Part shown: piece after piece, positions 1 through 44,679 of the stretch
How positions within the stretch are numbered: the first letter of the stretch is position 1
Layout of the letters: the number at the start of each line of letters is the position of its first letter
Origin: Escherichia phage vB_EcoS_UALMA_PCEc3
Sequence record: PQ314493
DNA: 44,679 bases
Strand: one strand, 5' to 3'
Translations under genes and position numbers: made by a program
The notes under the pieces: generated by a model
The model's input: only the letters and a program-made list of their open reading frames with translations
Database searches by the model: none
What the model was told of the DNA's origin: nothing

Positions 1-261
1 ATGAGCAAGTACGACCGCGAGATTATTGGTATTGATGGCACAGTAACAACAGTAGATGTTTATCGCGTTCTTGATGCGTTCAGCGTATCTTACCCAGCCA
101 CTCAGCATGCGGTAAAGAAGATGCTTTGTATGGGGTTGCGTGGACACAAGGATTACATAACCGACCTTAACGACTCAATCGAGTCATTACAGAAAGCCAA
201 GGAGCTTTACGGGCAAAAGATGATTCATCAATCAGATAAATCAAATCTGCGTGGTAAATAG
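1..261 (+). CDS. hypothetical early protein (86 aa)
   Basis: ORF from track; TAG stop (259-261) lies inside box copy 1. Confidence 0.45.
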   Translation: MSKYDREIIGIDGTVTTVDVYRVLDAFSVSYPATQHAVKKMLCMGLRGHKDYITDLNDSIESLQKAKELYGQKMIHQSDKSNLRGK

Positions 262-276
262 CACGAATTGCTAAAC
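256..276 (+). promoter_or_regulatory. palindromic box copy (aaaTAGCACGAATTGCTAAAc); -10 TATAGT at 296-301
   Basis: TAGCA-N5-TGCTA inverted repeat; 22-nt spacer to -10. Confidence 0.6.
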
Positions 277-330
277 CATCTCCGCAGGGTTTTGTTATAG
301 TTAGTTCACACCAAACGAGAGGAAAAAAAG

Positions 331-561
331 ATGATTACAATTAACCTGTCAGAGAAAGATGCGTCAACACTCAAGCAGCTTCTTTCAGGAAATCCGGTGC
401 ACACTAATGTTTATAACTTTGGTGAAGTAGAAAGGGAGGTTATCGCACAAATAAACAACCAGCAATTCGACGTAAGTGACTTCGAAAGTTCTAGACAATA
501 CGAGGCGATGAGCGTCAATGCTGCATACCTGACCAACTGGGATAAGGCGACTAATAAATGA
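331..561 (+). CDS. hypothetical protein (76 aa)
   Basis: ORF preceded by box/-10/leader cassette and RBS gagagg; stop overlaps next start (ATGA). Confidence 0.5.
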   Translation: MITINLSEKDASTLKQLLSGNPVHTNVYNFGEVEREVIAQINNQQFDVSDFESSRQYEAMSVNAAYLTNWDKATNK

Positions 562-975: not shown

Positions 976-996
976 AAATAGCACTAATTGCTAAAC
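976..996 (+). promoter_or_regulatory. palindromic box copy; -10 TATAGT ~1016-1021
   Basis: aaatagcactaattgctaaac. Confidence 0.55.
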
Positions 997-1051
997 CATC
1001 ATTGGGGTAATTTGTTATAGTTACCACACCCAAACTAACGAGGTTATAAGA

Positions 1052-1156
1052 ATGAGTGAATTAATTAAAACTATCGCGGACTATCCATTTGCTTCGCTTT
1101 TTCTTGCTCTTGCAATATATGAAATTGTAAAGATTATTGTAAAATGTATTAAATAG
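1052..1156 (+). CDS. small hydrophobic peptide (34 aa, MSELIKTIADYPFASLFLALAIYEIVKIIVKCIK)
   Basis: ATG after RBS gagg; downstream of box copy 2 cassette; TAG stop inside box copy 3; below track size cutoff. Confidence 0.3.
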   Translation: MSELIKTIADYPFASLFLALAIYEIVKIIVKCIK

Positions 1157-1171
1157 CACGAATTTCTAAAA
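1151..1171 (+). promoter_or_regulatory. palindromic box copy; -10 TATAGT ~1191-1196
   Basis: aaatagcacgaatttctaaaa. Confidence 0.55.
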
Positions 1172-1226
1172 CATTATCGGGGTATCTTGCTATAGTTACC
1201 CCATCAAAACGAAACAGGAAGCAGAA

Positions 1227-1583: not shown

Positions 1584-1723
1584 GTTTCACTGAATACGTG
1601 ATCGCATGCGAGCGACTGGTCTTTGATATGAAAACCTTCCACTGGTTCATCATTAAGGATTTAATCAAGCCTTATAAGCAGGGCGTTACGCCGGGGCGGT
1701 TTGTTAAGTCATTTTATAAATAG
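1580..1723 (+). CDS. small protein (47 aa)
   Basis: ATGA overlap with upstream ORF; TAG stop inside box copy 4. Confidence 0.3.
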   Translation: MSFTEYVIACERLVFDMKTFHWFIIKDLIKPYKQGVTPGRFVKSFYK

Positions 1724-1738
1724 CACGAATTGCTCAAC
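1718..1738 (+). promoter_or_regulatory. palindromic box copy; -10 TATAAT ~1758-1763
   Basis: aaatagcacgaattgctcaac. Confidence 0.55.
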
Positions 1739-1793
1739 GCAGTCGACACGGATGGCATATAATCACCTTACCAACACAACGAGAGATTGAGAC

Positions 1794-2852: not shown

Positions 2853-2929
2853 GCTCTGCTAGCTCAACAGGACAGCAGCAACGACCTTCTAAGTCGTAGG
2901 TTACTGGTTCGAATCCAGTGCGGAGCGCC
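2853..2929 (+). tRNA. tRNA-Arg (anticodon TCT)
   Basis: 7-bp acceptor stem GCTCTGC/GCGGAGC, U8, D-loop with GG, anticodon stem acgac/gtcgt with loop cTTCTaa, T-arm actgg-TTCGAAT-ccagt, discriminator G and encoded CCA. Confidence 0.8.
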
Positions 2930-2936: not shown

Positions 2937-3038
2937 CGTCGCGTTGCTAATGTTGGCCAAAGGGTGGAGCTTATACCTCCATAAAGCAATCTCCAGATAA
3001 GAGATGTAACGCAGGTTCGATTCCTGCCGCGACGACCA
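2937..3038 (+). tRNA. atypical tRNA-like RNA (~99 nt + CCA; anticodon unresolved, candidates GAT or TAT)
   Basis: perfect 7-bp acceptor pairing cgtcgcg/cgcgacg, canonical T-arm gcagg-TTCGATT-cctgc, encoded CCA; ~25 extra nt relative to a standard tRNA. Confidence 0.35.
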
Positions 3039-3963: not shown

Positions 3964-5529
3964 ATGTCTTTAGTATGGGAAGAAATGACCATTCAGGAAA
4001 AGATGGCTGTCAAGGCGATATCAGAACACAGCTTCGAGGGTTTCCTTCGCTGCTGGTTCCAGATCACGCAAGGCGAGCGATACATCCCCAACTGGCATCA
4101 CAAGTACTTGTGCAGAATTATCGACGAGATTATCGCAGGGGAGCGCAAAGACACCATCATTAACATAGCGCCAGGTAGCGGGAAGACGGAAATCACATCA
4201 ATCCACTTCCCCGTCTACTCGATGCTAAAGCTAAAGAAGGTTCGCAACCTTAATATCTCGTTTTCCGACTCAAACGTGAAACGCAATTCAAAGCGAGTCC
4301 GGGACCTGATATCGTCAAAGGAGTTCCAGGAGCTATGGCCTTGCAAGTTCGGAACAAATAAGGATGACGAAATTCAGATCGTCGACGACGGCGGAAAGGT
4401 TAGATTCGAGTCCATATCAGCATCAAAAGGAGGTAGAATTACCGGTACGCGTGGTGGATACATCACCGACACATACAGTGGGGCGGTAATGCTGGATGAC
4501 TTCGATAAGCCCGACGAGATGTTTTCATCTGTATACAGAGCTAAGAGTCACACGTTACTTGGGAACACAATTCGCTCACGTCGCGCAAGTTCGGTAAAAG
4601 GGAAGGCAACTCCAATTATCCAGATTCAACAGCGACTTCACGTCAATGACTCAACATGGTTCATGCTTAGCGGCGGTATGGGGATTGATTTTGATTTGGT
4701 GAAAATACCCGCACTGGTTACTGAGGATTACGTTGACACACTACCTGACTGGATTAAGCAGCAATTCATTGATGATGTGTTATCAAGCGAATACGTTGAG
4801 CGTGACGGAGTGAAGTATTACAGCTACTTTCCTGGGAAGGAGTCTGTACATGACTTAATCGCCATGTGGGATGCTGACCAATACACGTTCCTTAGTCAGT
4901 ACCAGCAGGAACCTGTAGCTCTGGGCGGTAATCTTATTAATGTGGATTGGTTCCAGCGCCTTAGTGATACATTTAGGCCCCCAGCTAAGTACGATTATAG
5001 ATTCATAACTTGCGATACTGCGATGACCACTAAAAGTTACAGCGACTTCTCAGTTCTGCAGCTATGGGGCTATAAGGATGCTAAGATTTACCTTATAGAC
5101 CAGCGCAGAGGTAAATGGGAGGCACCAGAGTTGGAAGCTGAACTACTGGACTTCGAGAGGAAATCAAGGGCAACCAGTCAGTCAGATGGCATCCTCCGTA
5201 AAATCATCATCGAGAAAAAGGCATCTGGTATCGGCCTAATTCAATCGGCAGGTAGAGTGATGCGAACACCGATAGAGCCATACGTTCCGGATAACGACAA
5301 GCTTACTCGCGTAATGAGCTCATTGCCTCAGATTAAGGCTGGCAATGTAGTTCTTCCAGAGTCATCGCCGTGGCTAAACGGATTGCTCACTGAGGTTGCG
5401 GCTTTTACGGCAGATGACTCGCATAAGCACGACGACCAAATTGACTGTCTAACAATGGCGGTAAACCTTGTACTTAACATCGCTGATGATCCTAAGGCGA
5501 GACTGATGCGCATAGCGGGAATGAAATAG
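3964..5529 (+). CDS. terminase large subunit
   Basis: 521 aa; P-loop-like NIAPGSGKTEIT near N-terminus; position before portal; TAG stop inside box copy 5. Confidence 0.8.
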   Translation: MSLVWEEMTIQEKMAVKAISEHSFEGFLRCWFQITQGERYIPNWHHKYLCRIIDEIIAGERKDTIINIAPGSGKTEITSIHFPVYSMLKLKKVRNLNISFSDSNVKRNSKRVRDLISSKEFQELWPCKFGTNKDDEIQIVDDGGKVRFESISASKGGRITGTRGGYITDTYSGAVMLDDFDKPDEMFSSVYRAKSHTLLGNTIRSRRASSVKGKATPIIQIQQRLHVNDSTWFMLSGGMGIDFDLVKIPALVTEDYVDTLPDWIKQQFIDDVLSSEYVERDGVKYYSYFPGKESVHDLIAMWDADQYTFLSQYQQEPVALGGNLINVDWFQRLSDTFRPPAKYDYRFITCDTAMTTKSYSDFSVLQLWGYKDAKIYLIDQRRGKWEAPELEAELLDFERKSRATSQSDGILRKIIIEKKASGIGLIQSAGRVMRTPIEPYVPDNDKLTRVMSSLPQIKAGNVVLPESSPWLNGLLTEVAAFTADDSHKHDDQIDCLTMAVNLVLNIADDPKARLMRIAGMK

Positions 5530-5544
5530 CACAAATTGCTAAAC
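5524..5544 (+). promoter_or_regulatory. palindromic box copy; -10 TATAGT 5564-5569
   Basis: aaatagcacaaattgctaaac; contains TAG stop of terminase large subunit. Confidence 0.6.
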
Positions 5545-5598
5545 ACTAAAGCCACGGATGGCGTATAGTTACCTCACACAAACGAGAGGAGAAGAAAG

Positions 5599-12590: not shown

Positions 12591-12613
12591 GCATAGCATT
12601 TTTTGCTAAAGAT
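12591..12613 (+). promoter_or_regulatory. degenerate box copy; -10 TATAGT ~12631-12636
   Basis: gcatagcattttttgctaaag. Confidence 0.45.
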
Positions 12614-12669
12614 ATTATTAAACTTTGCTGTATAGTTATCTCATCGAAACGAAATGAGAGACTAAAGAA

Positions 12670-23810: not shown

Positions 23811-23874
23811 TTTGAATTCCTCATTAAGTTGTTTCGTTTCGATGGAGTAATAGTACCGTATCCTTGCGATCAGT

Positions 23875-23895
23875 GTTTAGCAATTAGTGCTATTC
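23875..23895 (-). promoter_or_regulatory. palindromic box copy (minus orientation) upstream of Cor-like gene
   Basis: minus-sense gaatagcactaattgctaaac; -10-like TACTAT and leader ccatcgaaacgaaac follow. Confidence 0.55.
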
Positions 23896-24137: not shown

Positions 24138-24190
24138 CTTGTTTCCCCTTTTGAGTTTACCTGGAAATAGTACATCACCCATGAGCTTTT

Positions 24191-24213
24191 TCTTTAGCTA
24201 TTTGTGCTATTGC
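24191..24213 (-). promoter_or_regulatory. box variant (minus orientation)
   Basis: minus-sense aatagcacaaatagctaaag. Confidence 0.45.
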
Positions 24214-25835: not shown

Positions 25836-25854
25836 ATAGCACGAATCGCTAAAG
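25834..25854 (+). promoter_or_regulatory. palindromic box copy; -10 TATGAT ~25874-25879
   Basis: aaatagcacgaatcgctaaag. Confidence 0.55.
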
Positions 25855-25908
25855 ACAAAATTAAAAGGTGGGGTATGATTACCCCATCAACAACGAACGA
25901 GGTTAAAG

Positions 25909-27060: not shown

Positions 27061-29867
27061 GAAGCTGTATTTACCTGAAGATATGCACCATTAGTTGCAC
27101 CAAACCATGCGTAAGCAGATCCGTAAGTTGTTGGGTTATCATTTAAGATGAAGTCACCCGCTCTAATTACGCACTTTTCTCCATATTTATCAGTTGGCCT
27201 TGCACTAAAACCATAATCAACATATCTAAAACCAACCTTCGTTACGTTATCGTTAAGAGGAAAAATATCCGAGAAGCTAGAAGCCCTAAAGTCATTGTTC
27301 CTGAAAATTCCTCCTGTAAAGTTATCCATATCAAACATTGTGGTTAAACTTGAAGCAACAGTATTCATGAACTTGTTGCCTTCATATGTCGGAGCTACTA
27401 CTTCATAGCCAACTCTTAGCTGAACAAATCCCCCATCAATAATATTGTCCTTGACTATTGGATATTGCCCGCCGATTGCTAAGCCACCAAACCCAGGTGT
27501 AAATTTGCAACTATTATTACTAAATATAGTGCCAACCCACGCCTGATTTGTAAGGTATGGTGCCTTAGTATCTGTCATGGTGTTCCCGGTGATAATCAAT
27601 CCATTCTTGGCCTGAATTCCCTCCTGGTAGCCCTGAATCGCTACGCCGCCACCAATCATAATGTTGCTGGATATAATAATGTTGCTCAACCCCTCATTAA
27701 CACCCCAATCACTTTCTGCATCATTTGTTATCAGTAAGTAGTGAGAAGAAGCCCTGCCAGTAGCGTCTGTAGTTATGATGCTTGTATTCCCTTTGCATAT
27801 AACATTGTTTGCCGCAAAAACCTCAACAAATATACCAGAGCCTTCGTAGTAGTTATCAGTAACCGTTACGTTATTGCCAGCCGGGGTTATCCTTGACTGG
27901 ATAGATATTGGATAATAGAACTTGTTGGCGTGAGCGTAAGACCTTCGGCTTCTCTCGGATATTGCATAATCCTCCGCGAAAGTATGCCATGCCCTTCCTG
28001 ACTGTTTTGTTGTGTTTCCTATAAACTCTGAGTAGTCACAGTTTCTTGTGATTAAGCAGTAGTTAGCGTTGTATCTGAAGCTTGAATTTCTAAGAGATAC
28101 GAATGCATTAGGTAAGCCATTAAGAGCATCGGCATTAACAAAGGCCCTCGAGGCATTAACCTCCATACCCTCGATCACAACTGATGCGCATCCTTCAACC
28201 ATAAAACCAAACCAGTCTTCTCTTGGTTTATGCTCTGTATCCGTTGGTTGGATTGAGTAATCTGAAAAGTCAGTATTCCAGTTGAGTCCGCTAGCTTTAA
28301 ATGTGCAACCTTTAAGCCCGAAAACAACCCTCTCTGGTGATGTGCTTCCAGAGATATCAATATCAACATCATTATTGGCAAAAATGTCAACAGTAAGTCC
28401 ATTGAGGAAGAATGCCGTTTGCCTTAACACTCTGTACTTATCATTGTACTGAACACCATCGGAGAATGAGACTTTCAGTCTTCCAGCGCTAATTCTTACC
28501 TTCCTGTTTGTATTGTGACCAAGGTTTATACATGCCATAACCGAGGCGTTTGATTCATTAACTCCAGACACATCATGACCAGCCCATTCGGTATGGATAT
28601 CATCAACACCTCCCGTAAACCTAACCCAGCAACCATTTTCACCTGGTGATGTCTCACCCGCTCCGCTAAGGAAGTCTGAAAGAGTGGAATATGTACCATC
28701 AAATGGAACCGTTGGGCTAAAAACAGTAATCCCGTTATGTTCGCTCTTACTTACTAATGGACTCCAGTAGAACAGACCGCCACCAGAGTTTGATCCAGAA
28801 ATGTAAGACCTTACATTTGCTAAATTTTTATTCTCATTTGTTTGTTTGATTAGTTCGTAAATTGAATCAACTGAAGATAGTCCTAAATTACTCCTGGCAA
28901 GGCTTTTATCCGCAACATCAGAGAAATTCAATGATTTTTGAAAAGTCTCATTTTTTGAGTAAACATCAAGTAAACCTCTTACTCGCTGGGCGTTAGCGCC
29001 TCCAGCTTCATTTCCGCCAGGCAAGTAGATTGACTCTCTAACATAGTATTTCCTAACACCACCGGAAGTATTGTAACTGATGTGATAACGTCTAAAGCTG
29101 CCATCGATACCGGTGTAGGTTGACACTTGAATATTTCTTGATCCAGTCCCAGTTGCTCCGCCCTCTACAGATATAACAAGCGTAGCATTGCTTGGTACTT
29201 TTAATGCTTCTGGTGCATTTGTGCAAGCAGAGAAAGCAACCCTATAATGACCGCCAACAACAAAATTAAAAGTTTGGAAATCAAGTTCACTTAAAATATT
29301 GCTACCATTACCGATACCCCAACCAGAAAGTGTAACTAGTGTTCCAGCATCACCAGCACTATTAATTGCCTCAATAGTAGCATCTCTCGCTGATGTGGTT
29401 GTATCTCTTGCACTAACGGCAGTAGCTGCGCTCTCTGCGGCAGCAATCTGGCTAGCTAAAGCATCCGCTGCACCTTGCACTGACTGGCTTGCCAATTGCT
29501 CAAAGCGAGGCCAATCAAAAGAATCCTGACCAATGAAATCAATCAGGCTCTGAATGCTAGTTTCCCTACTCTGATAATAACGAAGTGTCTCCGCTACATT
29601 TTGAGCCAAACCCTGAACGCTAATCCCATCATGAGCAAGAATGGCATATCCAGTACCAGCAGGAACAGTTTCGCCATTTGGGTTATATACAGACAATGAA
29701 GTGTCGCTGGTGATTTCAGAGATAGTGTAAATCTGTACTGGCTCTGTTTTGAATACAATTGTAGCACCAACGCGAATAAGTGTTAGTGGCATGGTCCATT
29801 GAGTGCCAACTCCAGTAACCTGACCGTTCGCTGCTAAACTGGCAGTGCCAGTATCATAAATTGCCAT
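27057..29867 (-). CDS. tail fiber / tailspike-like protein with beta-helix-like repeats
   Basis: track ORF 27057..29897; probable ATG 29867 after RBS ggag; Asn/Gly-rich repeats suggest parallel beta-helix (inference). Confidence 0.6.
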   Translation of the reverse strand: MAIYDTGTASLAANGQVTGVGTQWTMPLTLIRVGATIVFKTEPVQIYTISEITSDTSLSVYNPNGETVPAGTGYAILAHDGISVQGLAQNVAETLRYYQSRETSIQSLIDFIGQDSFDWPRFEQLASQSVQGAADALASQIAAAESAATAVSARDTTTSARDATIEAINSAGDAGTLVTLSGWGIGNGSNILSELDFQTFNFVVGGHYRVAFSACTNAPEALKVPSNATLVISVEGGATGTGSRNIQVSTYTGIDGSFRRYHISYNTSGGVRKYYVRESIYLPGGNEAGGANAQRVRGLLDVYSKNETFQKSLNFSDVADKSLARSNLGLSSVDSIYELIKQTNENKNLANVRSYISGSNSGGGLFYWSPLVSKSEHNGITVFSPTVPFDGTYSTLSDFLSGAGETSPGENGCWVRFTGGVDDIHTEWAGHDVSGVNESNASVMACINLGHNTNRKVRISAGRLKVSFSDGVQYNDKYRVLRQTAFFLNGLTVDIFANNDVDIDISGSTSPERVVFGLKGCTFKASGLNWNTDFSDYSIQPTDTEHKPREDWFGFMVEGCASVVIEGMEVNASRAFVNADALNGLPNAFVSLRNSSFRYNANYCLITRNCDYSEFIGNTTKQSGRAWHTFAEDYAISERSRRSYAHANKFYYPISIQSRITPAGNNVTVTDNYYEGSGIFVEVFAANNVICKGNTSIITTDATGRASSHYLLITNDAESDWGVNEGLSNIIISSNIMIGGGVAIQGYQEGIQAKNGLIITGNTMTDTKAPYLTNQAWVGTIFSNNSCKFTPGFGGLAIGGQYPIVKDNIIDGGFVQLRVGYEVVAPTYEGNKFMNTVASSLTTMFDMDNFTGGIFRNNDFRASSFSDIFPLNDNVTKVGFRYVDYGFSARPTDKYGEKCVIRAGDFILNDNPTTYGSAYAWFGATNGAYLQVNTAS

Positions 29868-29888
29868 TGTGTAAAGTCTCCATTTGTA

Positions 29889-29909
29889 AAGTAGCACTAA
29901 TTGCTAAAG
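29889..29909. promoter_or_regulatory. palindromic box copy between primase terminator and tail fiber start
   Basis: aagtagcactaattgctaaag; only ~25 nt from tail fiber ATG in minus sense. Confidence 0.45.
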
Positions 29910-29932
29910 TGGATTGTATCATCTTTCATGTA

Positions 29933-29955
29933 TAAAAAAACCTCCCGAAGGAGGT
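29933..29955 (-). terminator. rho-independent terminator (minus strand) after primase gene
   Basis: minus-sense hairpin aacctccttcgggaggtt followed by T-run. Confidence 0.6.
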
Positions 29956-30878
29956 TAGTCTAGTAATTCGCTTGCTTTGTATATTCGCTTTCTTATGCCT
30001 GACTTGAAAAAATTATCATCATTTGGCATTACCACATCAAGATTGCGATCGTCAGCAACAGCGAGTAAATCAAAATCGTGGCGAGTACAAGCGACGCGTA
30101 ACTTGTAGTTTCTAAGCGCATAAGCAACCATTTCCATGTTGTAGCTGGAGTGGCAAACAAGCACGCAGCGGTTGCCAGTAGCAATGTGAACGCGATAGCC
30201 GTCAATGAGATTATCGACCAGATAAGCGTACTCATCATCTTTAAAGGCGCCAATAATAGAAACAGACTGGCGAGTATAATCTTTTGCAGCATAGCTAACA
30301 TCTCCATCTTCATTGATAAACATTACATTGCACATATCATCTGATATGCCGTCACTATAAGCCATAAAGCACGGTACTGCGTGTATTAGTTCGCCTGATT
30401 TAGTCCTGCCAACATCAAAACCAAATTCGCTATAGATACCCTCGTATATACTGAGCGGTGTTGATTCTACTCTTTCCGTCCTTTCCATTATCTCAAGGCA
30501 TCTTTCGTGGTCAATCTGCGCGCCCATTTTATAAAGCTTAGTTCTTGATGCTTGCTTGTTTGCCTTGTTGACAACCTCTACAGGAATGAGGTTTAACCAC
30601 TCACCTAGAGTGTCAATACATTCACTGAATGACTCCCCTCGCATCTTCTGCAGCCACAAAATTCCATCGCCTGAGCCGCACTGGTTGCAGATAATGCCAC
30701 CATCACCTTCTTCGCTAACCTTGTTGGTCCACCTGGCCCTGTCGTTACCGCCGCAATAAATGCATGGTTGATGCTTTTTGGTCTGGAAAAACCTAGGGTC
30801 TGCTCCGCAAATGTTTATAAGCGCCTTATCCCACATGCCGCGCATTCTTGGTAGAACCTCTTTCTTATCGTAGTGCAT
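29955..30878 (-). CDS. DNA primase (zinc-ribbon + TOPRIM-like, putative)
   Basis: CIYCGG...CNQCGSG zinc-binding motif; acidic DD cluster downstream. Confidence 0.55.
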   Translation of the reverse strand: MHYDKKEVLPRMRGMWDKALINICGADPRFFQTKKHQPCIYCGGNDRARWTNKVSEEGDGGIICNQCGSGDGILWLQKMRGESFSECIDTLGEWLNLIPVEVVNKANKQASRTKLYKMGAQIDHERCLEIMERTERVESTPLSIYEGIYSEFGFDVGRTKSGELIHAVPCFMAYSDGISDDMCNVMFINEDGDVSYAAKDYTRQSVSIIGAFKDDEYAYLVDNLIDGYRVHIATGNRCVLVCHSSYNMEMVAYALRNYKLRVACTRHDFDLLAVADDRNLDVVMPNDDNFFKSGIRKRIYKASELLD

Positions 30879-30936: not shown

Positions 30937-31410
30937 TTACTCTTTAGCTTTTCGTGCTGCTTCGTTAGCCGCCTTAATCTTGCGCCAGGAGCGACACTCT
31001 GGCTTGGTTGCTAGCTCCGCCTCAGTAACCACGCGCAGCATGTGACGCTTTTTGCAGCGCAGGGTTAGAGGCTTTCCGTTGCCATCGAATTGCAGATCTG
31101 GTCGGCAGAATGTAGCGCGAAAACCTTTTCCATTTCGCTTATAGTAGTTGTGCGACAACTGAGCGCCACGCGCAGAAATCATCCCACGCTTAAACCATTC
31201 TTCTACAGCCTGAGGTGTCACCTTTAACTGCTTTGCGATATTTGCCTTTGTGCCGAAGAAATCAAGAACAATCTCTAGCCGCGAGCGTAGCCCGGCTCTT
31301 ACTTCATCTTTTAAAACATAGTAGCCTGAAGGTCGTTTACGTTGCTTTTTGTCTTCGGTGCGGATGGTTCCGTTATTGCCGTTAATGGTTCGCTTGTCAA
31401 CTGCACTCAT
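30937..31410 (-). CDS. HTH DNA-binding protein (putative transcriptional regulator)
   Basis: HTH-like segment NIAKQLKVTPQAVEEWFKRG; basic; first gene of minus-strand operon. Confidence 0.5.
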   Translation of the reverse strand: MSAVDKRTINGNNGTIRTEDKKQRKRPSGYYVLKDEVRAGLRSRLEIVLDFFGTKANIAKQLKVTPQAVEEWFKRGMISARGAQLSHNYYKRNGKGFRATFCRPDLQFDGNGKPLTLRCKKRHMLRVVTEAELATKPECRSWRKIKAANEAARKAKE

Positions 31411-31421
31411 TTCATTACCTC

Positions 31422-31440
31422 AATAGCATTTTTTGTTAAA
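31422..31440 (+). promoter_or_regulatory. degenerate box variant in divergent HTH/helicase intergenic region
   Basis: aatagcattttttgttaaa. Confidence 0.35.
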
Positions 31441-31511
31441 AGTCATTATGATTTGATGGTAGTATTGTACTCAATTAAACGCTACAAGACAATTTTTATA
31501 GGAATTTAGAT

Positions 31512-33722
31512 ATGTTGCCTATCGAGAAGCTGGTTGCAAACTTCGATAAAGAAAGAATCAAGCAGATTCAGAAAGACTATCAGTTTGGTGAGATAACCCC
31601 TTACGAGTTTCAGTGCGTGACATTTGATGCAATCGGAAAGGCTATTGGGAAGTACGAAGCACCATTTATCGCAGACCTTTCCGTATCGGCTGGTAAGACA
31701 ATCATCCTGGCTATGATTGGAAAGCGTATGGAGCAGCTTGGTCTTCCTTATATGGTTCTATCTCGACAGTCAGAGATAATCAGCCAGAACTCAGAAGAGC
31801 TTCGTAATTTCGGCATCCGTAACAGCGTCTATTGCGCTGGCCTTAACGTTAAATCGGTTTACTATCCAACCATAGTTGCCAGCGAGGGTACGGCTGCTAA
31901 CGGATTGTTTAAGGGGCTTGGTGACTATGTTCCGGCTGTTATAGCTATCGATGAGTGTCATATGGTGGACCACATGGATATCGTGGAAGCCGAAGAGAAC
32001 GAAGAAACATTTGAGCAAATGAGCACAAAGAAAGGCGAGATGGTTTTCAAGGATGGTGTTAACACTGGATTAATTGGCACTGGTCGAGCTCAGTACACGC
32101 TAATTATCACTGAGATGAAACGTCGCTGCCGTGAGAAATACGGGAGGGAGCTTAGGATTTTTGGACTAACTGGTAGCCCGTATCGTAACAACGATCATAT
32201 CGTCGTTAGCAACCCAAACATCCGTGGATTCTGGCGCAAGACGGTTATTCAGGTTCCAACCAATTACCTGGTTGATTTAGGTTTCGTTGTTCCCACTGTT
32301 TACGGTGAGGTTGGCGATTTGGGTTATGACCTTGCTGAGTTCGCGCCGGATGGCAGCGATGGTGTGAAAGACTTCAGCAAAAAAGAAATGGATGCTATGC
32401 AGGAAAAAATTCATCAAAACCAGTCCATGACTCAAAAGATTATGCAGTTCGCAGCCAAGTTTATGGAAACTCGTAACGCAGCACTAGTAACTTGCTCAGG
32501 CAAGCGGCATTGCGAGGAAGCAGCCGCGGCGCTTCCTGAGGGTGTAACCTGGGCTATAGTAACTGACTCGACTGGTGAGAAAAAGCGTCGTGAGATTCTT
32601 TCTGACGCAGCTGAAGGTAAGTATACATTCATCTTTCAGATTGGTTGCCTCACAACCGGCGTGAACGTTCCGCCATGGGACACGTCAATAATTCTTCGAA
32701 AGGTTGGTAGCATCACGTTACTGATTCAGCTTTTGGGGCGAGGTATGCGAATCCTTAAGAAGAAACATAAAGAGATGGGGATGGTTAAAAATGACCACGT
32801 AGTTTTAGATTTCGCTGGCACTCTTGATGACATGGCAGAATTATACTTTGACCCAATCATAGAGAAGGTTCAGGATCAGAAATTCAAGTTATCAATGATG
32901 CTTAGTGATAAGCCAAGAGTGTGCCCAGAGTGTTCTTACGAAAATCCTCATTCTGCAGGTCGCTGTAATAATGTGATTTCCGGTAAGCGATGCGAGCACT
33001 TCTTTAAGTTTAAATTATGTGAAGATGTAGTTGACCCGAAGACAAAAGTTATCATTAAGAAGGGTTGCGGAGCGAAGAATGATGTTAAGGCAAAGAGTTG
33101 TCGATGCTGTGGAGAGATGCTTGCGGAGCCGAGAATTTGCCCAGCTTGTTCTTATGAGAACTTCCCATCCGCACGCCGTTGCAATAACTTAATTGAAGGT
33201 AAACGATGTGAGCACTTCTTTCAGTTCACAACTTGCGAAGACATTAAGGACCCGCAAACTAAATCGGTAATTAAAAAGGGATGTGGCGCTCGTAACGATA
33301 TAGCAGCAAAGGCTTGTCGGGAGTGTGGTGAGATGCTTAAAGACCCGAATGTTAACCTGACTGGCAAGATGTATCGTCGTGGTGATTACCTTCGTGTTTA
33401 TGATTTTCAAGTTGGGTTAAGTAAGAATCAGACAGGCGTTGTAGTTAAGTACAATATCATGGCTCATAACGGAGAGAGATTTAACGCTTGGGAGTTCTTT
33501 AATCCAGAATCAGACCATAGAGTTTGCAGTGTGCTGTGGAAAAACTTTTGCCTTGCTCACATTGAAAATCGCGCTGAAGCTGCACGGATTGGTAGGCTGA
33601 AAAATTCTAGGATGATTATGACTAACGTAGATAAGTTTCGCACCCCTGTTCAGGTAACGCACCGCAAGAATAGCAAAGGAAAGGACGTGATAGCTTTTAA
33701 GAACTTTGGAGAATTGTTATGA
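31512..33722 (+). CDS. SF2 DECH-box helicase with tandem C-terminal zinc-ribbon modules
   Basis: Walker A SAGKT, DECH box (AIDECHMV), two ~72-aa Cys-rich repeats. Confidence 0.75.
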   Translation: MLPIEKLVANFDKERIKQIQKDYQFGEITPYEFQCVTFDAIGKAIGKYEAPFIADLSVSAGKTIILAMIGKRMEQLGLPYMVLSRQSEIISQNSEELRNFGIRNSVYCAGLNVKSVYYPTIVASEGTAANGLFKGLGDYVPAVIAIDECHMVDHMDIVEAEENEETFEQMSTKKGEMVFKDGVNTGLIGTGRAQYTLIITEMKRRCREKYGRELRIFGLTGSPYRNNDHIVVSNPNIRGFWRKTVIQVPTNYLVDLGFVVPTVYGEVGDLGYDLAEFAPDGSDGVKDFSKKEMDAMQEKIHQNQSMTQKIMQFAAKFMETRNAALVTCSGKRHCEEAAAALPEGVTWAIVTDSTGEKKRREILSDAAEGKYTFIFQIGCLTTGVNVPPWDTSIILRKVGSITLLIQLLGRGMRILKKKHKEMGMVKNDHVVLDFAGTLDDMAELYFDPIIEKVQDQKFKLSMMLSDKPRVCPECSYENPHSAGRCNNVISGKRCEHFFKFKLCEDVVDPKTKVIIKKGCGAKNDVKAKSCRCCGEMLAEPRICPACSYENFPSARRCNNLIEGKRCEHFFQFTTCEDIKDPQTKSVIKKGCGARNDIAAKACRECGEMLKDPNVNLTGKMYRRGDYLRVYDFQVGLSKNQTGVVVKYNIMAHNGERFNAWEFFNPESDHRVCSVLWKNFCLAHIENRAEAARIGRLKNSRMIMTNVDKFRTPVQVTHRKNSKGKDVIAFKNFGELL

Positions 33723-34138
33723 ATATTAAAGATAAAGAAGATTACATTGAGTTCTACCCGGGTCCTGTTAAATCATGCCCAAAGGAGGATGACGAACAAA
33801 TCTTTTGCTCTGATTGGGTTAAGTATAACTACCCGGAGATGGTATTTTTCCACTGCGTAAATGAGGGGAAGAAAACCATTGGACAGGCAAGAAAGGACCA
33901 GGCTAAAGGGCTACTTAAAGGCGTGTCAGACTGCATGTTTCTTATTCCCGAGTCTCTGCGAGGCAAATACCCTTTCGGAGCTATAGAGCTGAAGAGGGCT
34001 GGCAAAACTCAGGCTAGCCCAGTCAGTGACGAGCAGAAGTCTTTCCTTAAAAGCGTGAGAGAATCAGGGGGTTTCGCTGGGGTTGCCTACGGTAGAGAGG
34101 GTTTTCTGGCAGCGTTTAGAGAAATGATTTCAAAATAG
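33719..34138 (+). CDS. VRR-NUC-like PD-(D/E)XK nuclease (putative)
   Basis: D...IELK...SDEQ motif arrangement; ATGA overlap with helicase stop. Confidence 0.5.
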   Translation: MNIKDKEDYIEFYPGPVKSCPKEDDEQIFCSDWVKYNYPEMVFFHCVNEGKKTIGQARKDQAKGLLKGVSDCMFLIPESLRGKYPFGAIELKRAGKTQASPVSDEQKSFLKSVRESGGFAGVAYGREGFLAAFREMISK

Positions 34139-34153
34139 CACTAATTGCTAAAC
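34133..34153 (+). promoter_or_regulatory. palindromic box copy; -10 TATAGT 34173-34178
   Basis: aaatagcactaattgctaaac; contains TAG stop of VRR-NUC gene. Confidence 0.6.
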
Positions 34154-34216
34154 ACTTATCGCAGGGATGCGATATAGTTACTCCATCGAAACGAAACGCA
34201 CAAAGAGAGAAAGAAA

Positions 34217-36476: not shown

Positions 36477-36496
36477 ATAGCACATTTTGTTAATAA
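36475..36496 (+). promoter_or_regulatory. degenerate box variant followed by hairpin
   Basis: aaatagcacattttgttaataa then gcctcaaaggattgaggc. Confidence 0.4.
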
Positions 36497-36550
36497 AGCC
36501 TCAAAGGATTGAGGCAAAATGAATAAACGATAACGAGATGAGGAGTTATA

Positions 36551-37024: not shown

Positions 37025-37581
37025 AAATGACTAAATTATTTATCCTTAATGGCCCCGCTGGAGTTGGCAAGGACACTATAGCGGATATCATGGTTGAGAC
37101 TGGTGTAGCCAAAGAAAAGGTATCATTCAAGTCACCAATTTTTAACGTTGCAAAAGGAATGCTATCAAGCGATGAATTTGATGGATTCATCAAGAATTAC
37201 GACAATAGAGACTATAAGGAATCACCTCATGGATTTCTTGGAGGTATGACAGTTCGTGAATTTATGATTTGGATTAGCGAGTCTGTAATGAAGCCAGTCT
37301 TTGGTGATGATATTTTCGGTAAAAGGCTAGCCCAGTCACTTGGTTATGGTTGCTACATTTGCGCTGATGGTGGATTTGCTAGCGAGATTAAGCCACTGAT
37401 CTACGCTGGTGTTGAGGTCACGTTAATCAGATTGCATAGGGCAGGGTACACATTTGATGGCGATAGTCGCTCATACATTCACGGGGTGTGCGCAAGAGAA
37501 ATTGATGTTCGTGTTGTTGATTGTGATATTGATGGAACATCAGCATTTGTAAGGCACGTAATAAATAGCACGAATTGCTAA
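37021..37581 (+). CDS. P-loop nucleotide/nucleoside kinase (putative)
   Basis: Walker A NGPAGVGKDT; ATG 37021 overlaps upstream stop (track start TTG 37003); C-terminus NSTNC encoded by box. Confidence 0.55.
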   Translation: MKMTKLFILNGPAGVGKDTIADIMVETGVAKEKVSFKSPIFNVAKGMLSSDEFDGFIKNYDNRDYKESPHGFLGGMTVREFMIWISESVMKPVFGDDIFGKRLAQSLGYGCYICADGGFASEIKPLIYAGVEVTLIRLHRAGYTFDGDSRSYIHGVCAREIDVRVVDCDIDGTSAFVRHVINSTNC

Positions 37582-37583
37582 AG
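37563..37583 (+). promoter_or_regulatory. palindromic box copy; -10 TATCAT 37603-37608
   Basis: aaatagcacgaattgctaaag; encodes C-terminal NSTNC + TAA of kinase gene. Confidence 0.6.
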
Positions 37584-37649
37584 ATAATAATAAAAACTGA
37601 GTTATCATTAACACATCGAAACGAGATGAAACAAAAGAGGAAGCACAAA

Positions 37650-37826
37650 ATGACTAAAATGATTTATTGCACCAAAAACAACTCCAAGACGCTGCCATTT
37701 ACAGTTAACCAGCCGTACAATGCAGAGTATCAAGGTGACGGATACTACAAGATTTATGGCGACGATATGACGTGGATTTTAGCGCCGATTGATGGTTCGC
37801 TGGTTGAATTTATTATCGCAGACTAG
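37650..37826 (+). CDS. hypothetical small protein
   Basis: track ORF 37575..37826; likely start ATG 37650 after cassette leader and RBS. Confidence 0.4.
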   Translation: MTKMIYCTKNNSKTLPFTVNQPYNAEYQGDGYYKIYGDDMTWILAPIDGSLVEFIIAD

Positions 37827-41046: not shown

Positions 41047-41101
41047 TACTTCTCTCCGTGTTGTTTCTGAGCGGCCATTATATCAACGACCGCTTATAAT
41101 T

Positions 41102-41122
41102 CATTATCAATTTGTGCTATTT
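41102..41122 (-). promoter_or_regulatory. box variant (minus orientation) upstream of NTPase-like gene
   Basis: minus-sense aaatagcacaaattgataa. Confidence 0.45.
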
Positions 41123-41471: not shown

Positions 41472-41532
41472 TTTGTTTGCCTTTTTGTGTTTCGTTTCGA
41501 TGAGATGAATATACAGGAAAAGCCCCGAAGGG

Positions 41533-41553
41533 CTTTAGCAATTCGTGCTATTG
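41533..41553 (-). promoter_or_regulatory. palindromic box copy (minus orientation) followed by hairpin and conserved leader
   Basis: minus-sense aatagcacgaattgctaaag then gcccttcggggc then ctcatcgaaacgaaac. Confidence 0.5.
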
Positions 41554-42310: not shown

Positions 42311-42399
42311 ATCTATCTCCTCGTTTTGATGAGTTAACTATATCCTCCATGACCCCCAATGTCTTTAGCAAAAAGTGCTACTCGTTAGATTTATGTATT

Positions 42400-43459: not shown

Positions 43460-43983
43460 TGTTTGACTTTAACGAGGATAAACTGACAGAAGAGCAGGTA
43501 ATAGAGATAGCCAAGCAAGATGGAATGCCTCCGCTGCGAATTGCAATCAATGCTAACGGGTATCGACAGTCAACGGCGTTTTGGGGCTCGATTGATATCT
43601 CAGAGGTGTATAGTGGTGATGAGCTTGGTGTACTGATTAAAATCATCAGGAAGATAGGAGTTAACGGCAAAGTAGTTGTCGGCATCAGATCTCTATATGA
43701 AGGCGCTCGCAAGTTAAAGCCATTTGCTGGGCGCGATGGAATGATGCTAGTGATCAAGGACAAGCTAATTCCAGAGCTCGATAAGATGAATGTTACCTGT
43801 CTAATTGGAGATAAGGTTTACTTCAACCCCTCCTTGACGGATTTAAGCTGGCAACCAAACTTCAAAACTTGCGAAGGTGAGCATGTTAGTAGACTACCAT
43901 ACCACTTGCGGTACAGAGAGGAAGAGGTGGAGATGGCGATTGAGTTCCACCGGAAAGCTAAACCACTCCTGAACGGTGAATAG
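43459..43983 (+). CDS. short paralogue of the P-loop NTPase-like protein (lacks NTPase core)
   Basis: MFDFNEDKL...INANGYRQS N-terminus and VVGIRSLYE...TCLIGDKVY C-terminal block shared with 39463..41046. Confidence 0.55.
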   Translation: MFDFNEDKLTEEQVIEIAKQDGMPPLRIAINANGYRQSTAFWGSIDISEVYSGDELGVLIKIIRKIGVNGKVVVGIRSLYEGARKLKPFAGRDGMMLVIKDKLIPELDKMNVTCLIGDKVYFNPSLTDLSWQPNFKTCEGEHVSRLPYHLRYREEEVEMAIEFHRKAKPLLNGE

Positions 43984-43998
43984 CACGGATTGCTAAAC
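43978..43998 (+). promoter_or_regulatory. palindromic box copy; -10 TATAAT 44018-44023
   Basis: gaatagcacggattgctaaac; contains TAG stop of short paralogue. Confidence 0.6.
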
Positions 43999-44047
43999 AA
44001 TGGATCGGGTAGTCAGCTATAATTACCACATCGACAACAAAGAGGAA

Positions 44048-44267: not shown

Positions 44268-44486
44268 ATGCAAGTATATACGAATAGTAATGGCGTCGAG
44301 TATTGTGTTGTTTACGGAGTGGTTCTTCGCACTGTTGGTGGCCTCGGGATCATCAACATTTCAGTGATCAAGCCTGAATTACTGGTGAAAGGAATCCAGG
44401 CCGGAATCTTCAGCTTTCACTCAACGCTGACGGCTAAGCAGTATGTTACCCTCGCCAACGCGGTTAAGTACGGTTTTATCAAATAG
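44268..44486 (+). CDS. hypothetical protein (72 aa)
   Basis: ORF from track; TAG stop inside box copy. Confidence 0.4.
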   Translation: MQVYTNSNGVEYCVVYGVVLRTVGGLGIINISVIKPELLVKGIQAGIFSFHSTLTAKQYVTLANAVKYGFIK

Positions 44487-44501
44487 CACTTTTTGTTAAA
44501 A
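44481..44501 (+). promoter_or_regulatory. degenerate box variant
   Basis: aaatagcactttttgttaaaa. Confidence 0.4.
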
Positions 44502-44679
44502 AGGGGATTCATCCTGACTGGTGTAATCCCCACATCAACCAAACAAATGGAAGTTAAGTGACCATATACGAACATAAATTCATCAGTAGGGGTATTGATA
44601 TGCTCCTGCACTATTTAGACGAAAAATACGCAAATCTAATACTTAAGACGCATGGCGGCACAATAACGAGGATTGAGAT

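What the first reader, a model, noticed from the sequence alone, without database searches (positions are those of the whole stretch)
256..331. Genome-wide palindromic box fused to a -10 element and a conserved leader (at least 18 copies)
The box aaaTAGCACGAATTGCTAAAc (inverted repeat TAGCA-N5-TGCTA) recurs on both strands at about 256, 976, 1151, 1718, 5524, 12591, 23875, 24191, 25834, 29889, 31422, 34133, 36475, 37563, 41102, 41533, 43978 and 44481. In most copies a -10-like hexamer (TATAGT/TATAAT/TATGAT/TATCAT) sits exactly 22 nt after TTGCTA, followed by a conserved leader (TTACCnCATCgAAACGArA), an RBS and an ATG. The 22-nt spacing is too long for TTGCTA to be a canonical -35. It would put the palindrome centre near -42, the position of class II activator sites, so the box may be the operator of a phage- or host-encoded dimeric regulator driving a whole regulon. 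I do not recognise this element from described T1-like phages.
Basis: seen in the sequence. Interest (0 to 1): 0.85.

Follow-up and report, generated by a model that had tools for sequence, protein, structure and literature searches.

The report
Phage promoters carrying the host marbox
About 19 promoter cassettes in this T1-like phage carry, at the activator position, a box identical to the published E. coli consensus binding site for MarA/SoxS/Rob, so the phage probably couples most of its transcription to these host stress and antibiotic-resistance regulators.

Summary
The window is phage PsgS01F, an Rtp/T1-like Drexlerviridae genome. It holds 19 oriented copies of aaATAGCACnnnTTGYTAAA. In 15 of them an extended -10 (TGnTATAGT-like) lies exactly 18 bp after the 20-bp box. 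A start codon follows 71-89 nt after the first base of the box in 18 of them.

The palindrome is incidental. The box is asymmetric. Its 15-nt core is the published ChIP-seq consensus marbox GCACTAATTGCTAAA: 4 exact copies, 9 with at most one mismatch, 15 with at most two, against 0.18 expected. It also fits AYnGCACnnWnnRYYAAAY. Orientation and the spacing to the -10 (18 bp) are the same as at E. coli micF, the model class II MarA/SoxS/Rob promoter. The predicted centre is -40.5, and there is no usable -35.

The repeat was already described, without explanation, in phage TLS in 2024. I found no paper linking it to the marbox.

No phage examined encodes an AraC-family protein. The same box and spacing recur in T1, Rtp and Klebsiella Webervirus. 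They also recur in two podophage genera that lack the T1-type Cro-like regulator.

Best reading (about 0.65): these are sigma70 promoters activated by host MarA/SoxS/Rob/RamA. Binding and transcription starts are inferred, not shown.

The parts
258..319 (+). Cassette 1 (the reported one). Marbox ATAGCACGAATTGCTAAACC at 258-277, -10 TATAGT at 296-301 preceded by TG at 293-294, predicted +1 at 308, ATG at 331. The TAG at 259-261 is the stop codon of the upstream gene.
978..1039 (+). Cassette with an exact consensus marbox core GCACTAATTGCTAAA (981-995). -10 TATAGT at 1016-1021, predicted +1 at 1028, ATG at 1052.
1153..1214 (+). Cassette (core GCACGAATTTCTAAA). -10 at 1191-1196, predicted +1 at 1203, ATG at 1227. 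Inverted repeat GGGGTA..TACCCC encloses the -10.
1720..1781 (+). Cassette. -10 TATAAT at 1758-1763, predicted +1 at 1770, ATG at 1794.
5526..5587 (+). Cassette after the terminase large subunit gene, ahead of the virion-structural, portal and head genes. -10 at 5564-5569, predicted +1 at 5576, ATG at 5599.
12593..12654 (+). Cassette inside the tail module (core GCATTTTTTGCTAAA). -10 at 12631-12636, predicted +1 at 12643, ATG at 12670.
23832..23893 (-). Cassette with an exact consensus core. -10 TACTAT at 23855-23850, predicted +1 at 23843, start codon at 23810.
24149..24210 (-). Cassette (core GCACAAATAGCTAAA). -10 TACTAT at 24172-24167. The likely true ATG is near 24137, because the annotated start at 24182 lies inside the cassette.
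25836..25897 (+). Cassette ahead of the Erf recombinase gene. -10 TATGAT at 25874-25879, predicted +1 at 25886, ATG at 25909. Hairpin GGTGGGGTA-tgat-TACCCCATC, -15.5 kcal/mol, z = -4.5.
29891..29910 (+). Orphan consensus box with no -10 and no downstream gene. It points the opposite way to the tail-fibre gene (ATG at 29867, minus strand). It lies just downstream of a TGaTACAAT -10-like element on the minus strand, so it may be a repressive site. The same arrangement is present in T1 and Rtp.
31423..31484 (+). Variant cassette ahead of the helicase gene (core GCATTTTTTGTTAAA; -10 TAGTAT at 17 bp). It starts 12 nt from the divergent start codon of the regulator gene.
34135..34196 (+). Cassette with an exact consensus core. 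-10 at 34173-34178, predicted +1 at 34185, ATG at 34217.
36477..36538 (+). Degenerate cassette ahead of the polynucleotide kinase gene (GCACATTTTGTTAAT; -10 CAAAAT). A GC-rich hairpin fills the spacer.
37565..37626 (+). Cassette ahead of the small gene that precedes the lysis genes. -10 TATCAT at 37603-37608, predicted +1 at 37615, ATG at 37650.
41059..41120 (-). Cassette ahead of the ATPase/helicase gene (T1 gp09-like). -10 TATAAT at 41082-41077. An 11-bp stem encloses the -10 (z = -3.6).
41490..41551 (-). Cassette. -10 TATATT at 41513-41508, predicted +1 at 41501. A terminator-like hairpin AAGCCCttcgGGGCTTTT sits in the spacer.
42320..42381 (-).
43980..44041 (+). Cassette. -10 TATAAT at 44018-44023, predicted +1 at 44030, likely ATG near 44053. 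The annotated start at 44000 lies inside the cassette.
44483..44544 (+). Cassette (GCACTTTTTGTTAAA; -10 TGTAAT at 19 bp). Inverted repeat GGGGATT..AATCCCC. GTG start at about 44558 of a gene that wraps round the window end.
30937..31410 (-). Gene for the 157-aa single-HTH Cro/C2-like regulator (= Rtp52 = T1 gp23). It is the only clear DNA-binding protein in the window and is the rival candidate for reading the box.

Best explanation
Each cassette is a sigma70 promoter of the class II MarA/SoxS/Rob type.

Proposed anatomy:
- A near-consensus 20-bp marbox (ATAGCACnnnTTGYTAAAnn) lies in forward orientation at about -50 to -31 and replaces the -35 hexamer.
- An extended -10 (TGnTATAGT-like) follows 18 bp after the box.
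- Transcription is predicted to start at a conserved CA, 7 nt after the -10.
- The transcript has an A/C-rich, G-poor leader (AUCGAAACGAA...), a Shine-Dalgarno sequence and a start codon about 74 nt after the first base of the box.

Proposed mechanism: a monomeric dual-HTH host activator of the MarA family docks on the box and recruits RNA polymerase in place of a -35 contact. Candidates are Rob, which is always present, MarA or SoxS when induced, and RamA in Klebsiella or Salmonella. About 18 such promoters drive the small early genes, the replication, recombination and lysis genes, and two entry points into the structural genes. Phage expression would therefore follow the host's mar/sox/rob state.

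Shown here: sequence identity to the published marbox, asymmetry, orientation, spacing, lack of a -35, and conservation across phage lineages.

Inferred: the transcription starts, binding by the host proteins, and dependence of promoter activity on them.
For: 1. Sequence. The box core equals the published ChIP-seq consensus marbox 5'-gcactaattgctaaa-3' (PMC5684230). The window has 4 exact copies, 9 with at most 1 mismatch and 15 with at most 2, against 0.18 expected. AYnGCACnnWnnRYYAAAY (PMC3709825) gives 6 exact matches against 0.05 expected. gcannwwntgnnaaa (PMC12052159) gives 12 exact matches against 0.99 expected. GCAHWWWWTGYYAAA (PMC6900184) gives 15 matches with at most 1 mismatch against 1.7 expected.

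2. Asymmetry. Conserved A0, A1, C7, T11, A17 and A18 violate the palindrome. Position 14 is Y (C 43, T 18 of 72), while position 4 is strictly G. This is what RYYAAAY predicts.

3. Geometry. E. coli micF reads ACAGCACTGAATGTCAAAAC, then 18 bp, then TAGAAT, with the annotated RNA 5' end 8 nt further on. The phage reads ATAGCACGAATTGCTAAACC, then 18 bp, then TATAGT. GCAC is distal and AAA proximal in both. Class II is defined as forward orientation overlapping the -35. Forward sites cluster near -41 and class II promoters lack a -35 (PMC10268841). RamA sits at about -41 at micF.

4. Core promoter. The -35 position reads AAA(A/C)n, at most 3 of 6 matches. Canonical sigma70 sites in the window are no more frequent than in shuffles (66 found, about 80 expected) and none exceeds 10 of 12. 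TLS likewise has only three sigma70-like intergenic promoters.

5. No phage-encoded reader is evident. No AraC-family ORF was found in the window, T1, Rtp, KL, IME_EC2 or C130_2.

6. Conservation. The same box and spacing occur 12-17 times per genome in Rtp, T1 and Klebsiella Webervirus KL. They occur 6-8 times in IME_EC2 (Murrayvirus) and C130_2 (Hungariovirus). These two have P22-like virion genes and no homologue of the T1-type regulator (best E-values 0.45 and 1.9). All credible hosts are Enterobacterales, which have MarA-family proteins with a conserved marbox.

7. Availability. Rob is constitutive and binds marboxes more tightly than MarA or SoxS.
Against: - No binding or expression data exist for these promoters. 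The transcription starts are predictions.
- In unstressed cells MarA and SoxS are scarce and Rob is largely sequestered. T1-like phages nevertheless grow very well in ordinary laboratory cultures (my own knowledge). The extended -10 may therefore give substantial activator-independent activity, and the box may only modulate it.
- The box is more constrained than host marboxes (T2 and A3 nearly invariant), and 10 of its positions do form TAGCA/TGCTA arms one helical turn apart. A second reader with a dimeric HTH is not excluded.
- The T1-type regulator is a core gene of the family (824 records).
- Murrayvirus and Hungariovirus share a replication module with T1-like phages. The cassettes, and an unidentified small phage factor, could have moved together with that module.
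- I know of no host-factor screen that has implicated rob, marA or soxS for T1-like phages. Redundancy among the three could hide this.
Confidence: 0.65

Rival explanations
1. A phage-encoded protein reads the box. The obvious candidate is the Cro/C2-like regulator (window 30937-31410, minus strand), binding as a dimer to TAGCA-N5-TGCTA. It could act as a class II activator of middle genes, or as a repressor shutting the cassettes off (a 'stoperator'-like role, as the TLS authors speculated).
For: - The arms TAGCA/TGCTA lie 10 bp apart centre to centre, which suits an HTH dimer.
- The regulator is a core family gene (824 records).
- It is expressed from a region without a box. Its own transcript must cross the box at 31423, which would allow autoregulation.
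- The reversed box at 29891 lies just downstream of the tail-fibre -10-like element, as an operator would.
- The TLS paper raises stoperators as one possibility.
Against: - Six strongly conserved box positions break the symmetry, and 26-30% of copies have TGTTA instead of TGCTA.
- The regulator's recognition helix differs between the window, T1 and KL (TPQAVEEWFKR, SNQTVQGWKER, SIQVVQQWRKR), while the box does not change.
- IME_EC2 and C130_2 have the same cassettes and no homologue of the regulator.
- If a phage protein were required, nearly all early genes would lack a usable promoter at the moment of infection.
- Exact identity to the host consensus marbox and to the micF spacing would then be a coincidence.
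Confidence: 0.15
2. No trans-acting factor is involved. The box is an upstream promoter element contacted directly by RNA polymerase (UP-element-like contacts by the alpha C-terminal domain, or an unusual sigma region 4 contact). It would boost -35-less, extended -10 promoters.
For: - Extended -10 promoters can work without a -35 (general knowledge).
- The box is flanked by A-tracts and lies at -52 to -31, overlapping the region where UP elements act. The TLS authors suggested UP elements.
- T1-like phages grow well in unstressed cells (my own knowledge).
Against: - UP elements are A/T-only tracts. Here the most conserved bases are G4, C5, A6, C7 and G13 (1.7-2.0 bits).
- TTGCTA lies 22 bp from the -10, beyond the reach of sigma region 4.
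- This reading does not explain base-for-base identity to the MarA consensus.
Confidence: 0.1
3. The main selected role is not promoter activation. One version: the boxes are high-affinity decoys that titrate MarA/SoxS/Rob off host promoters as phage DNA replicates. Another version: the roughly 60-bp cassettes act as recombination junctions that shuffle gene modules, like PeSL cassettes in T4-type phages.
For: - About 20 near-consensus sites per genome, multiplied by many replicating copies, would exceed the cell's supply of these proteins (inference).
- Homology with related phages starts or stops at 252/253, 1715 and 5530, next to the boxes at 256, 1718 and 5524.
- The cassettes also occur in structurally unrelated podophages.
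Against: The rigid 18-bp link to a -10, the single orientation with the downstream gene and the fixed distance to the start codon are what a promoter needs. A decoy or a recombination site needs none of them. These roles could be secondary rather than alternative.
Confidence: 0.05

Closest known systems
Class II marbox promoters of the E. coli/Salmonella mar-sox-rob regulon (micF as the model; also lpxC, lpxL, rfaY)
   Same: The 15-nt consensus core is identical. Both are asymmetric, in forward orientation, and overlap and replace the -35. Both have 18 bp between the 20-bp box and the -10. The centre is near -41. Both have a good -10, often with TG.
   Different: - The phage sites are far closer to consensus than host sites.
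- They occur about 20 times in 45 kb of a virulent phage.
- They are fused to a conserved leader and often to a hairpin around the -10.
- Binding and activation have not been tested.
The 21-nt direct repeat aaATAGCACnnnTTGnTAAAA of phage TLS (PMC11447400)
   Same: It is the same element. It has the same consensus, points in the direction of transcription, lies about 76 nt upstream of start codons, and occurs about 20 times per genome. T1, Rtp and Rogue1 are said to have it too.
   Different: That paper left the function open (stoperator, enhancer-binding site or UP element). It did not note the fixed -10 or the match to the marbox.
T4 middle promoters (MotA box with AsiA-remodelled sigma70)
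   Same: It works in a similar way. A conserved box replaces the -35 in front of a good -10, and an activator supplies the missing contact across a whole phage regulon (general knowledge).
   Different: The MotA box (consensus TTTGCTTTA, from memory) is centred near -30 and is read by phage-encoded MotA together with AsiA. Here no phage activator is evident, and the box is a host transcription-factor site centred near -41.
Mycobacteriophage L5 stoperators
   Same: Both are short asymmetric sites repeated many times, in one orientation relative to transcription, in short intergenic gaps. The comparison was made by the TLS authors.
   Different: Stoperators bind the phage repressor and block elongation in a temperate phage. 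Here the site is locked 18 bp upstream of a -10 in virulent phages.
PeSL (promoter-early stem-loop) cassettes of T4-type phages
   Same: Both are repeated compact promoter-plus-hairpin cassettes at gene-module boundaries. Homology breakpoints coincide with cassettes here.
   Different: As I recall them, PeSLs are ordinary sigma70 early promoters with no activator box. The comparison rests on my own knowledge and was not tested here.

Membership tests
marbox (MarA/SoxS/Rob/RamA binding site) | Match to the published consensus (gcactaattgctaaa; AYnGCACnnWnnRYYAAAY; GCAHWWWWTGYYAAA) | tested here: met
   Against gcactaattgctaaa the window has 4 exact copies, 9 with at most 1 mismatch and 15 with at most 2, with 0.18 expected. 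The 19-nt degenerate consensus gives 6 exact matches against 0.05 expected. Other forms were checked.
marbox (MarA/SoxS/Rob/RamA binding site) | Non-palindromic, with a defined orientation (GCAC element, then A/T-rich spacer, then YYAAA element) | tested here: met
   Conserved A0, A1, C7, T11, A17 and A18 break the symmetry. Position 14 is Y while position 4 is strictly G. Apart from the orphan box at 29891, every copy points towards its downstream gene.
marbox (MarA/SoxS/Rob/RamA binding site) | Bound by MarA, SoxS, Rob or RamA | not testable with these tools
   This needs EMSA, footprinting or ChIP. The only support here is sequence identity to sites derived from ChIP-seq.
Class II MarA/SoxS/Rob-dependent promoter | Forward orientation, overlapping the -35, centred about -36 to -55 (cluster near -41) | tested here: met
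   The box is followed by 18 bp and then the -10, in 15 of 19 copies exactly. This equals the micF spacing. The centre is -40.5 relative to the predicted start. The transcription start itself is predicted, not mapped.
Class II MarA/SoxS/Rob-dependent promoter | No recognisable -35 hexamer, and a canonical -10 | tested here: met
   The -35 position reads AAA(A/C)n, at most 3 of 6 matches. The scan tool picks up some cassettes only as TAAACA-18-TATAGT or TAAACA-18-TATAAT, 9-10 of 12. The family -10 logo is TATAaT with G at -14. Class II promoters match the -35 at no more than 3 positions.
Class II MarA/SoxS/Rob-dependent promoter | Transcription is activated by the regulator and lost when the box is mutated | not testable with these tools
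   This needs reporter fusions in a marA soxS rob deletion background and in vitro transcription.
   Only 10 of about 17 strongly conserved positions are symmetric, and 6 are anti-symmetric. The right arm varies (TGCTA or TGTTA) while the left arm does not.
   IME_EC2 and C130_2 carry 6-8 cassettes each. The best tblastn matches to the T1-type regulator have E-values of 0.45 and 1.9.
UP element | A/T-only tract at -38 to -59 contacted by the alpha C-terminal domain | tested here: not met
   The most informative box positions are G and C (G4, C5, C7, G13). The UP consensus was recalled from memory, not looked up.

The most novel reading that the evidence does not exclude
A whole family of virulent enterobacterial phages (T1, Rtp, TLS and Webervirus relatives) has placed most of its promoters under the host's MarA/SoxS/Rob/RamA activators. 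At least two unrelated podophage genera have done the same. Phage gene expression would then read the host's antibiotic, oxidative and bile stress state. It would be favoured in mar-constitutive multidrug-resistant cells. Hundreds of replicating genomes, each carrying about 20 consensus sites, could also drain these regulators from the host resistance regulon.
Probability: 0.5. Interest if true: 0.85.

Novelty: new variant of a known kind. Interest (0 to 1): 0.75.

Why it matters
- It would give a concrete, testable mechanism for a repeat that T1-family annotators have reported without explanation. It would also explain why these genomes seem to lack ordinary sigma70 promoters.
- I know of no other virulent phage family that builds nearly its whole promoter set on binding sites for a host stress regulator.
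- MarA, SoxS, Rob and RamA drive clinical multidrug resistance through AcrAB-TolC, porins and LPS. Phages whose promoters respond to them could perform better in exactly the resistant or stressed cells that antibiotics miss. Some relatives (TLS, U136B) use TolC, itself a mar-regulon product, as their receptor.
- This bears on phage-antibiotic synergy, on the choice of therapeutic phages, and on the use of these 60-bp cassettes as compact stress-responsive promoters.

Tried and rejected
- **Phage-encoded MarA-like protein.** A marginal hit in IME_EC2 gp22 (E 0.001) has no AraC/HTH_18 support in Pfam. Pfam and PHROGs scans of the larger unknown ORFs found no AraC domain.
- **Canonical sigma70 promoters as the real promoters.** They are not enriched over shuffles.
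- **TTGCTA as the -35.** The 22-bp spacer rules it out.
- **CCCCAT in the leader as a sigma32 -10.** There is no CTTGAAA-like element at the right distance. The C-run is better explained as the 3' arm of a stem.
- **Known RNA family in the leaders.** Rfam finds only the two tRNAs.
- **30942-30960(-) as a 20th cassette.** Rejected. It lies in the 3' end of the regulator gene, and its apparent -10 is the loop of a terminator hairpin.
- **Literature.** The Rtp genome paper could not be retrieved. The T1 genome paper is also not in the library. Searches for marbox with phage, and for phage T1 with SoxS, MarA and Rob, found no paper linking them.
- **Independent weight matrix.** I did not build one from experimentally bound host sites. 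The supplement I opened had no sequences. The published consensus strings and the micF and mar loci were used instead.
Full report
**What the window is.** The 44,679-bp window is the complete genome of 'Pseudomonas phage PsgS01F' (PP134917.1), reverse-complemented and rotated (100% identity; mapping verified). It is an Rtp-like member of the T1 family (Drexlerviridae). It is 92% identical to E. coli phage vB_EcoS_CEB_EC3a and 83% to Rtp. The gene order matches Rtp and T1.

**Check of the observation.**
- TAGCA-N5-TGCTA occurs 11 times exactly, against 0.04 expected.
- Allowing degenerate copies gives 19 oriented cassettes.
- Counting from the A of ATAGCAC as position 1, the 20-bp box is followed by 18 bp and then a -10 hexamer at positions 39-44.
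- The -10 is in exactly that place in 15 of 19 copies and one base off in three more. The copy at 29891 has no -10 and no gene downstream.
- The -10 is usually extended (TGnTATAGT).
- A start codon lies 71-89 nt after box position 1 in 18 of 19 copies. This requires correcting two annotated starts that fall inside cassettes (44000 and 24182).

**The palindrome is not the signal.**
- I pooled 484 distinct cassettes from the window, Rtp, T1 and IMG/VR relatives. The box positions in this set are biased by how the copies were found. The flanks and degenerate positions are not.
- Conserved A0, A1, C7, T11, A17 and A18 have no symmetric partner.
- I then anchored on one half-site only, in four complete genomes. 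Position 14 is C 43 times and T 18 times out of 72, while its mirror position 4 is always G.
- About 30% of real copies, and many in T1, read TGTTAAAA. This breaks the TAGCA/TGCTA pairing.
- The element is therefore oriented and asymmetric.

**What the box is.**
- It fits every published form of the marbox, the binding site of the monomeric dual-HTH activators MarA, SoxS, Rob and RamA.
  - AYnGCACnnWnnRYYAAAY (PMC3709825): 6 exact matches against 0.05 expected.
  - gcannwwntgnnaaa (PMC12052159): 12 exact matches against 0.99 expected.
  - GCAHWWWWTGYYAAA (PMC6900184): 15 matches with at most one mismatch against 1.7 expected.
[quoted passage not shown] Nine sites match it at 14 or more of 15 positions and fifteen at 13 or more, against 0.18 expected.
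- The partial palindrome GCA-N5-TGC is a property of the marbox itself.

**Geometry.**
[quoted passage not shown] In Salmonella such sites cluster near -41, and these promoters lack a recognisable -35. RamA sits at about -41 at micF.
- I read the micF promoter from MG1655. It is ACAGCACTGAATGTCAAAAC, then 18 bp, then TAGAAT, with the annotated RNA 5' end 8 nt after the hexamer.
- The phage cassette is ATAGCACGAATTGCTAAACC, then 18 bp, then TATAGT. The order is the same, with GCAC distal and AAA proximal.
- The family logo shows a conserved C-A at positions 50-51, 7 nt after the -10. This is the expected start and puts the box centre at -40.5.
- The bases at the -35 position are AAA(A/C)n.
- Canonical sigma70 promoters are no more frequent in the window than in shuffled sequence (66 against about 80). 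None exceeds 10 of 12 matches.
- The mar operon's own site, ATGCCACGTTTTGCTAAATC, differs from some phage boxes by only two or three bases. An example is KL 8098(-), ATAGCACGTTTTGCTAAAAC.

**Who reads it.**
- No AraC-family protein is encoded in the window, T1, Rtp, Webervirus KL, IME_EC2 or C130_2.
- The only clear DNA-binding protein in the window is a 157-aa protein with a single Cro-like HTH (window 30937-31410, minus strand; = Rtp52 = T1 gp23). It is a core gene of the family.
- Its recognition helix differs between the window, T1 and KL, while the box is unchanged.
- An exact-pattern scan of IMG/VR found the box in T1, Rtp, TLS and Shfl1-sized contigs, and in two contigs of about 41.5 kb.
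- Those two are IME_EC2 (Murrayvirus) and C130_2 (Hungariovirus). They are virulent phages with P22-like virion genes. They share only the helicase, primase, exonuclease VIII and Erf genes with T1-like phages.
- They carry 6-8 cassettes each with the same 18-bp spacing, and they have no homologue of the T1-type regulator (best E-values 0.45 and 1.9).
- IME_EC2 uses a different leader, so box-plus-(-10) is the portable unit.
- The simplest common reader is a host protein.
- Rob is constitutive and binds marboxes more tightly than MarA or SoxS, but it is largely sequestered without inducers. MarA and SoxS are induced by stress.

**What is known already.**
- The repeat itself is not new. The 2024 re-annotation of TLS reports 21 copies of aaATAGCACnnnTTGnTAAAA. 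[quoted passage not shown]
- That paper mentions similar repeats in T1, Rtp and Rogue1 as unpublished observations. It reports only three sigma70-like promoters in TLS.
- It leaves the function open, suggesting stoperators, enhancer-binding sites or UP elements (PMC11447400).
- The T1 and Rtp GenBank records do not annotate the element.
- Full-text searches for marbox with phage, and for phage T1 with SoxS, MarA and Rob, found no paper making the connection. The library is incomplete, and the original T1 and Rtp genome papers could not be read.

**Mechanism and confidence.**
- I put about 0.65 on the cassettes being class II promoters at which a host MarA-family protein substitutes for the -35 contact.
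- The sequence, asymmetry, orientation, spacing, missing -35 and cross-lineage conservation are shown. The transcription starts, the binding and the dependence on the activator are inferred.
- The main caveat is that T1-like phages thrive in unstressed laboratory cultures. The extended -10 may therefore give useful basal activity, with the activator modulating rather than gating expression.
- The rivals are a phage-encoded reader (0.15), a factor-independent upstream element (0.1), and a primary decoy or recombination role (0.05).

**Other anatomy.**
- *Stop codons.* In at least 12 cassettes the stop codon of the upstream gene is the TAG of aTAGcac, or the TAA of gcTAAa, or directly abuts the box. 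Transcription units are packed end to start.
- *Hairpins.* Positions 19-58 fold much better than shuffles across the family (mean -11.6 against -5.1 kcal/mol, mean z = -3.1, 69% below -2). This was confirmed with dinucleotide shuffles for several window cassettes.
  - The commonest stem pairs positions 27-35 with 42-50, so the start of the -10 sits in the loop. The arm sequences differ between cassettes (GGGGTA/TACCCC, GGGGATT/AATCCCC, GGGCAT/ATGCCC).
  - Others have a complete GC hairpin in the spacer, followed by the T-rich -10.
  - Part of the 'conserved leader' (TTACCCC) is therefore a stem arm.
  - Only about 8 of the 19 window cassettes show the hairpin strongly, and its role is open.
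- *Leader.* The rest of the leader (AUCGAAACGAA) is A/C-rich and G-poor. I read it as an unstructured 5' UTR that favours ribosome loading. This is inference only.

**Verdict.**
- The element is real.
The palindrome and dimer reading, and the claim that the element is unknown in this family, are not supported.
- The match to the consensus marbox is, as far as I could find, unreported. It turns a known but unexplained repeat into a specific hypothesis that standard strains and proteins can test.

Noticed in passing
window cassettes, positions 19-58 from each box start; e.g. 1169-1212, 25852-25895, 41061-41104(-), 44499-44542, 36493-36536: Inverted repeats of varying sequence flank or precede the -10, so the start of the -10 sits in a hairpin loop. 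In some cassettes a GC hairpin in the spacer is followed by the T-rich -10, like a terminator overlapping the promoter. Family-wide mean MFE is -11.6 against -5.1 kcal/mol for shuffles. Only about 8 of the 19 window cassettes show it strongly. The function is unknown (RNA processing or termination of read-through, or DNA cruciform).
   Followed up: partly
window 29891-29910 (+), with 29867-29960: An exact consensus box points away from any gene. It lies between the primase terminator and the tail-fibre start codon (29867, minus strand), just downstream of a TGaTACAAT -10-like element on the minus strand. A protein bound there would be placed to repress the tail-fibre gene. The same arrangement is present in T1 (34902) and Rtp (33762).
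   Followed up: partly
window 31408-31512: The Cro-like regulator gene starts 12 nt from the helicase-gene box (31423). The regulator's only promoter-like sites (TTGAGT-18-CATAAT, TTGTCT-17-TACAAT, minus strand) overlap the helicase -10. The two divergent promoters overlap, and the regulator transcript must cross an occupied box.
   Followed up: partly
window 259-261, 1154-1156, 1721-1723, 5527-5529, 34136-34138, 43981-43983, 44484-44486; 37579-37581, 41537-41535(-), 23879-23877(-): The stop codon of the upstream gene is very often the TAG inside aTAGcac or the TAA inside gcTAAa of the box. Genes end inside the next promoter's activator site.
   Followed up: yes
window 44000 (record CDS0021) and 24182 (record CDS0057): Two annotated start codons lie inside cassettes, between the box and the -10. 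Starts preceded by a Shine-Dalgarno sequence lie about 74 nt after the box, near 44053 and 24137. The deposited starts are probably mis-called.
   Followed up: partly
whole window; record PP134917.1: The record names Pseudomonas syringae pv. garcae as host. The genome is 44.4% G+C, 92% identical to an E. coli phage, and built on marbox promoters typical of Enterobacterales, so the host label looks doubtful. Similar oddities: about 20 'Campylobacter' records among relatives, and a 'Stutzerimonas' phage 94.5% identical to Escherichia phage C130_2.
   Followed up: no
window 252/253, 1715, 5530: Homology with many related phages begins or ends within a few bases of the boxes at 256, 1718 and 5524. 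This suggests that cassettes are junctions of mosaic gene modules.
   Followed up: no
window 35211-35225 (-): A near-consensus marbox core (GCACTAATTGCTAAT, 14 of 15) lies antisense inside a small gene. It has no ATA prefix and no obvious -10. It may be chance or a relic.
   Followed up: no
L127 (IME_EC2) 59, 28267(-), 36230(-), 37538(-); L128 (C130_2) 3760, 10710(-): The podophage cassettes share the box and the -10 spacing. IME_EC2 has its own leader with a hairpin (CACCGGGCG..CGCCCAC). C130_2 partly keeps the T1-type leader (CCCATCGAAACGAAC). The modules of the cassette therefore travel separately.
   Followed up: partly
window 2853-2927 and 2937-3035: Two adjacent tRNA genes, annotated Arg and Ile. 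The second is unusually long at 99 nt and scores weakly (39 bits). It may carry an insertion or be degenerate.
   Followed up: no
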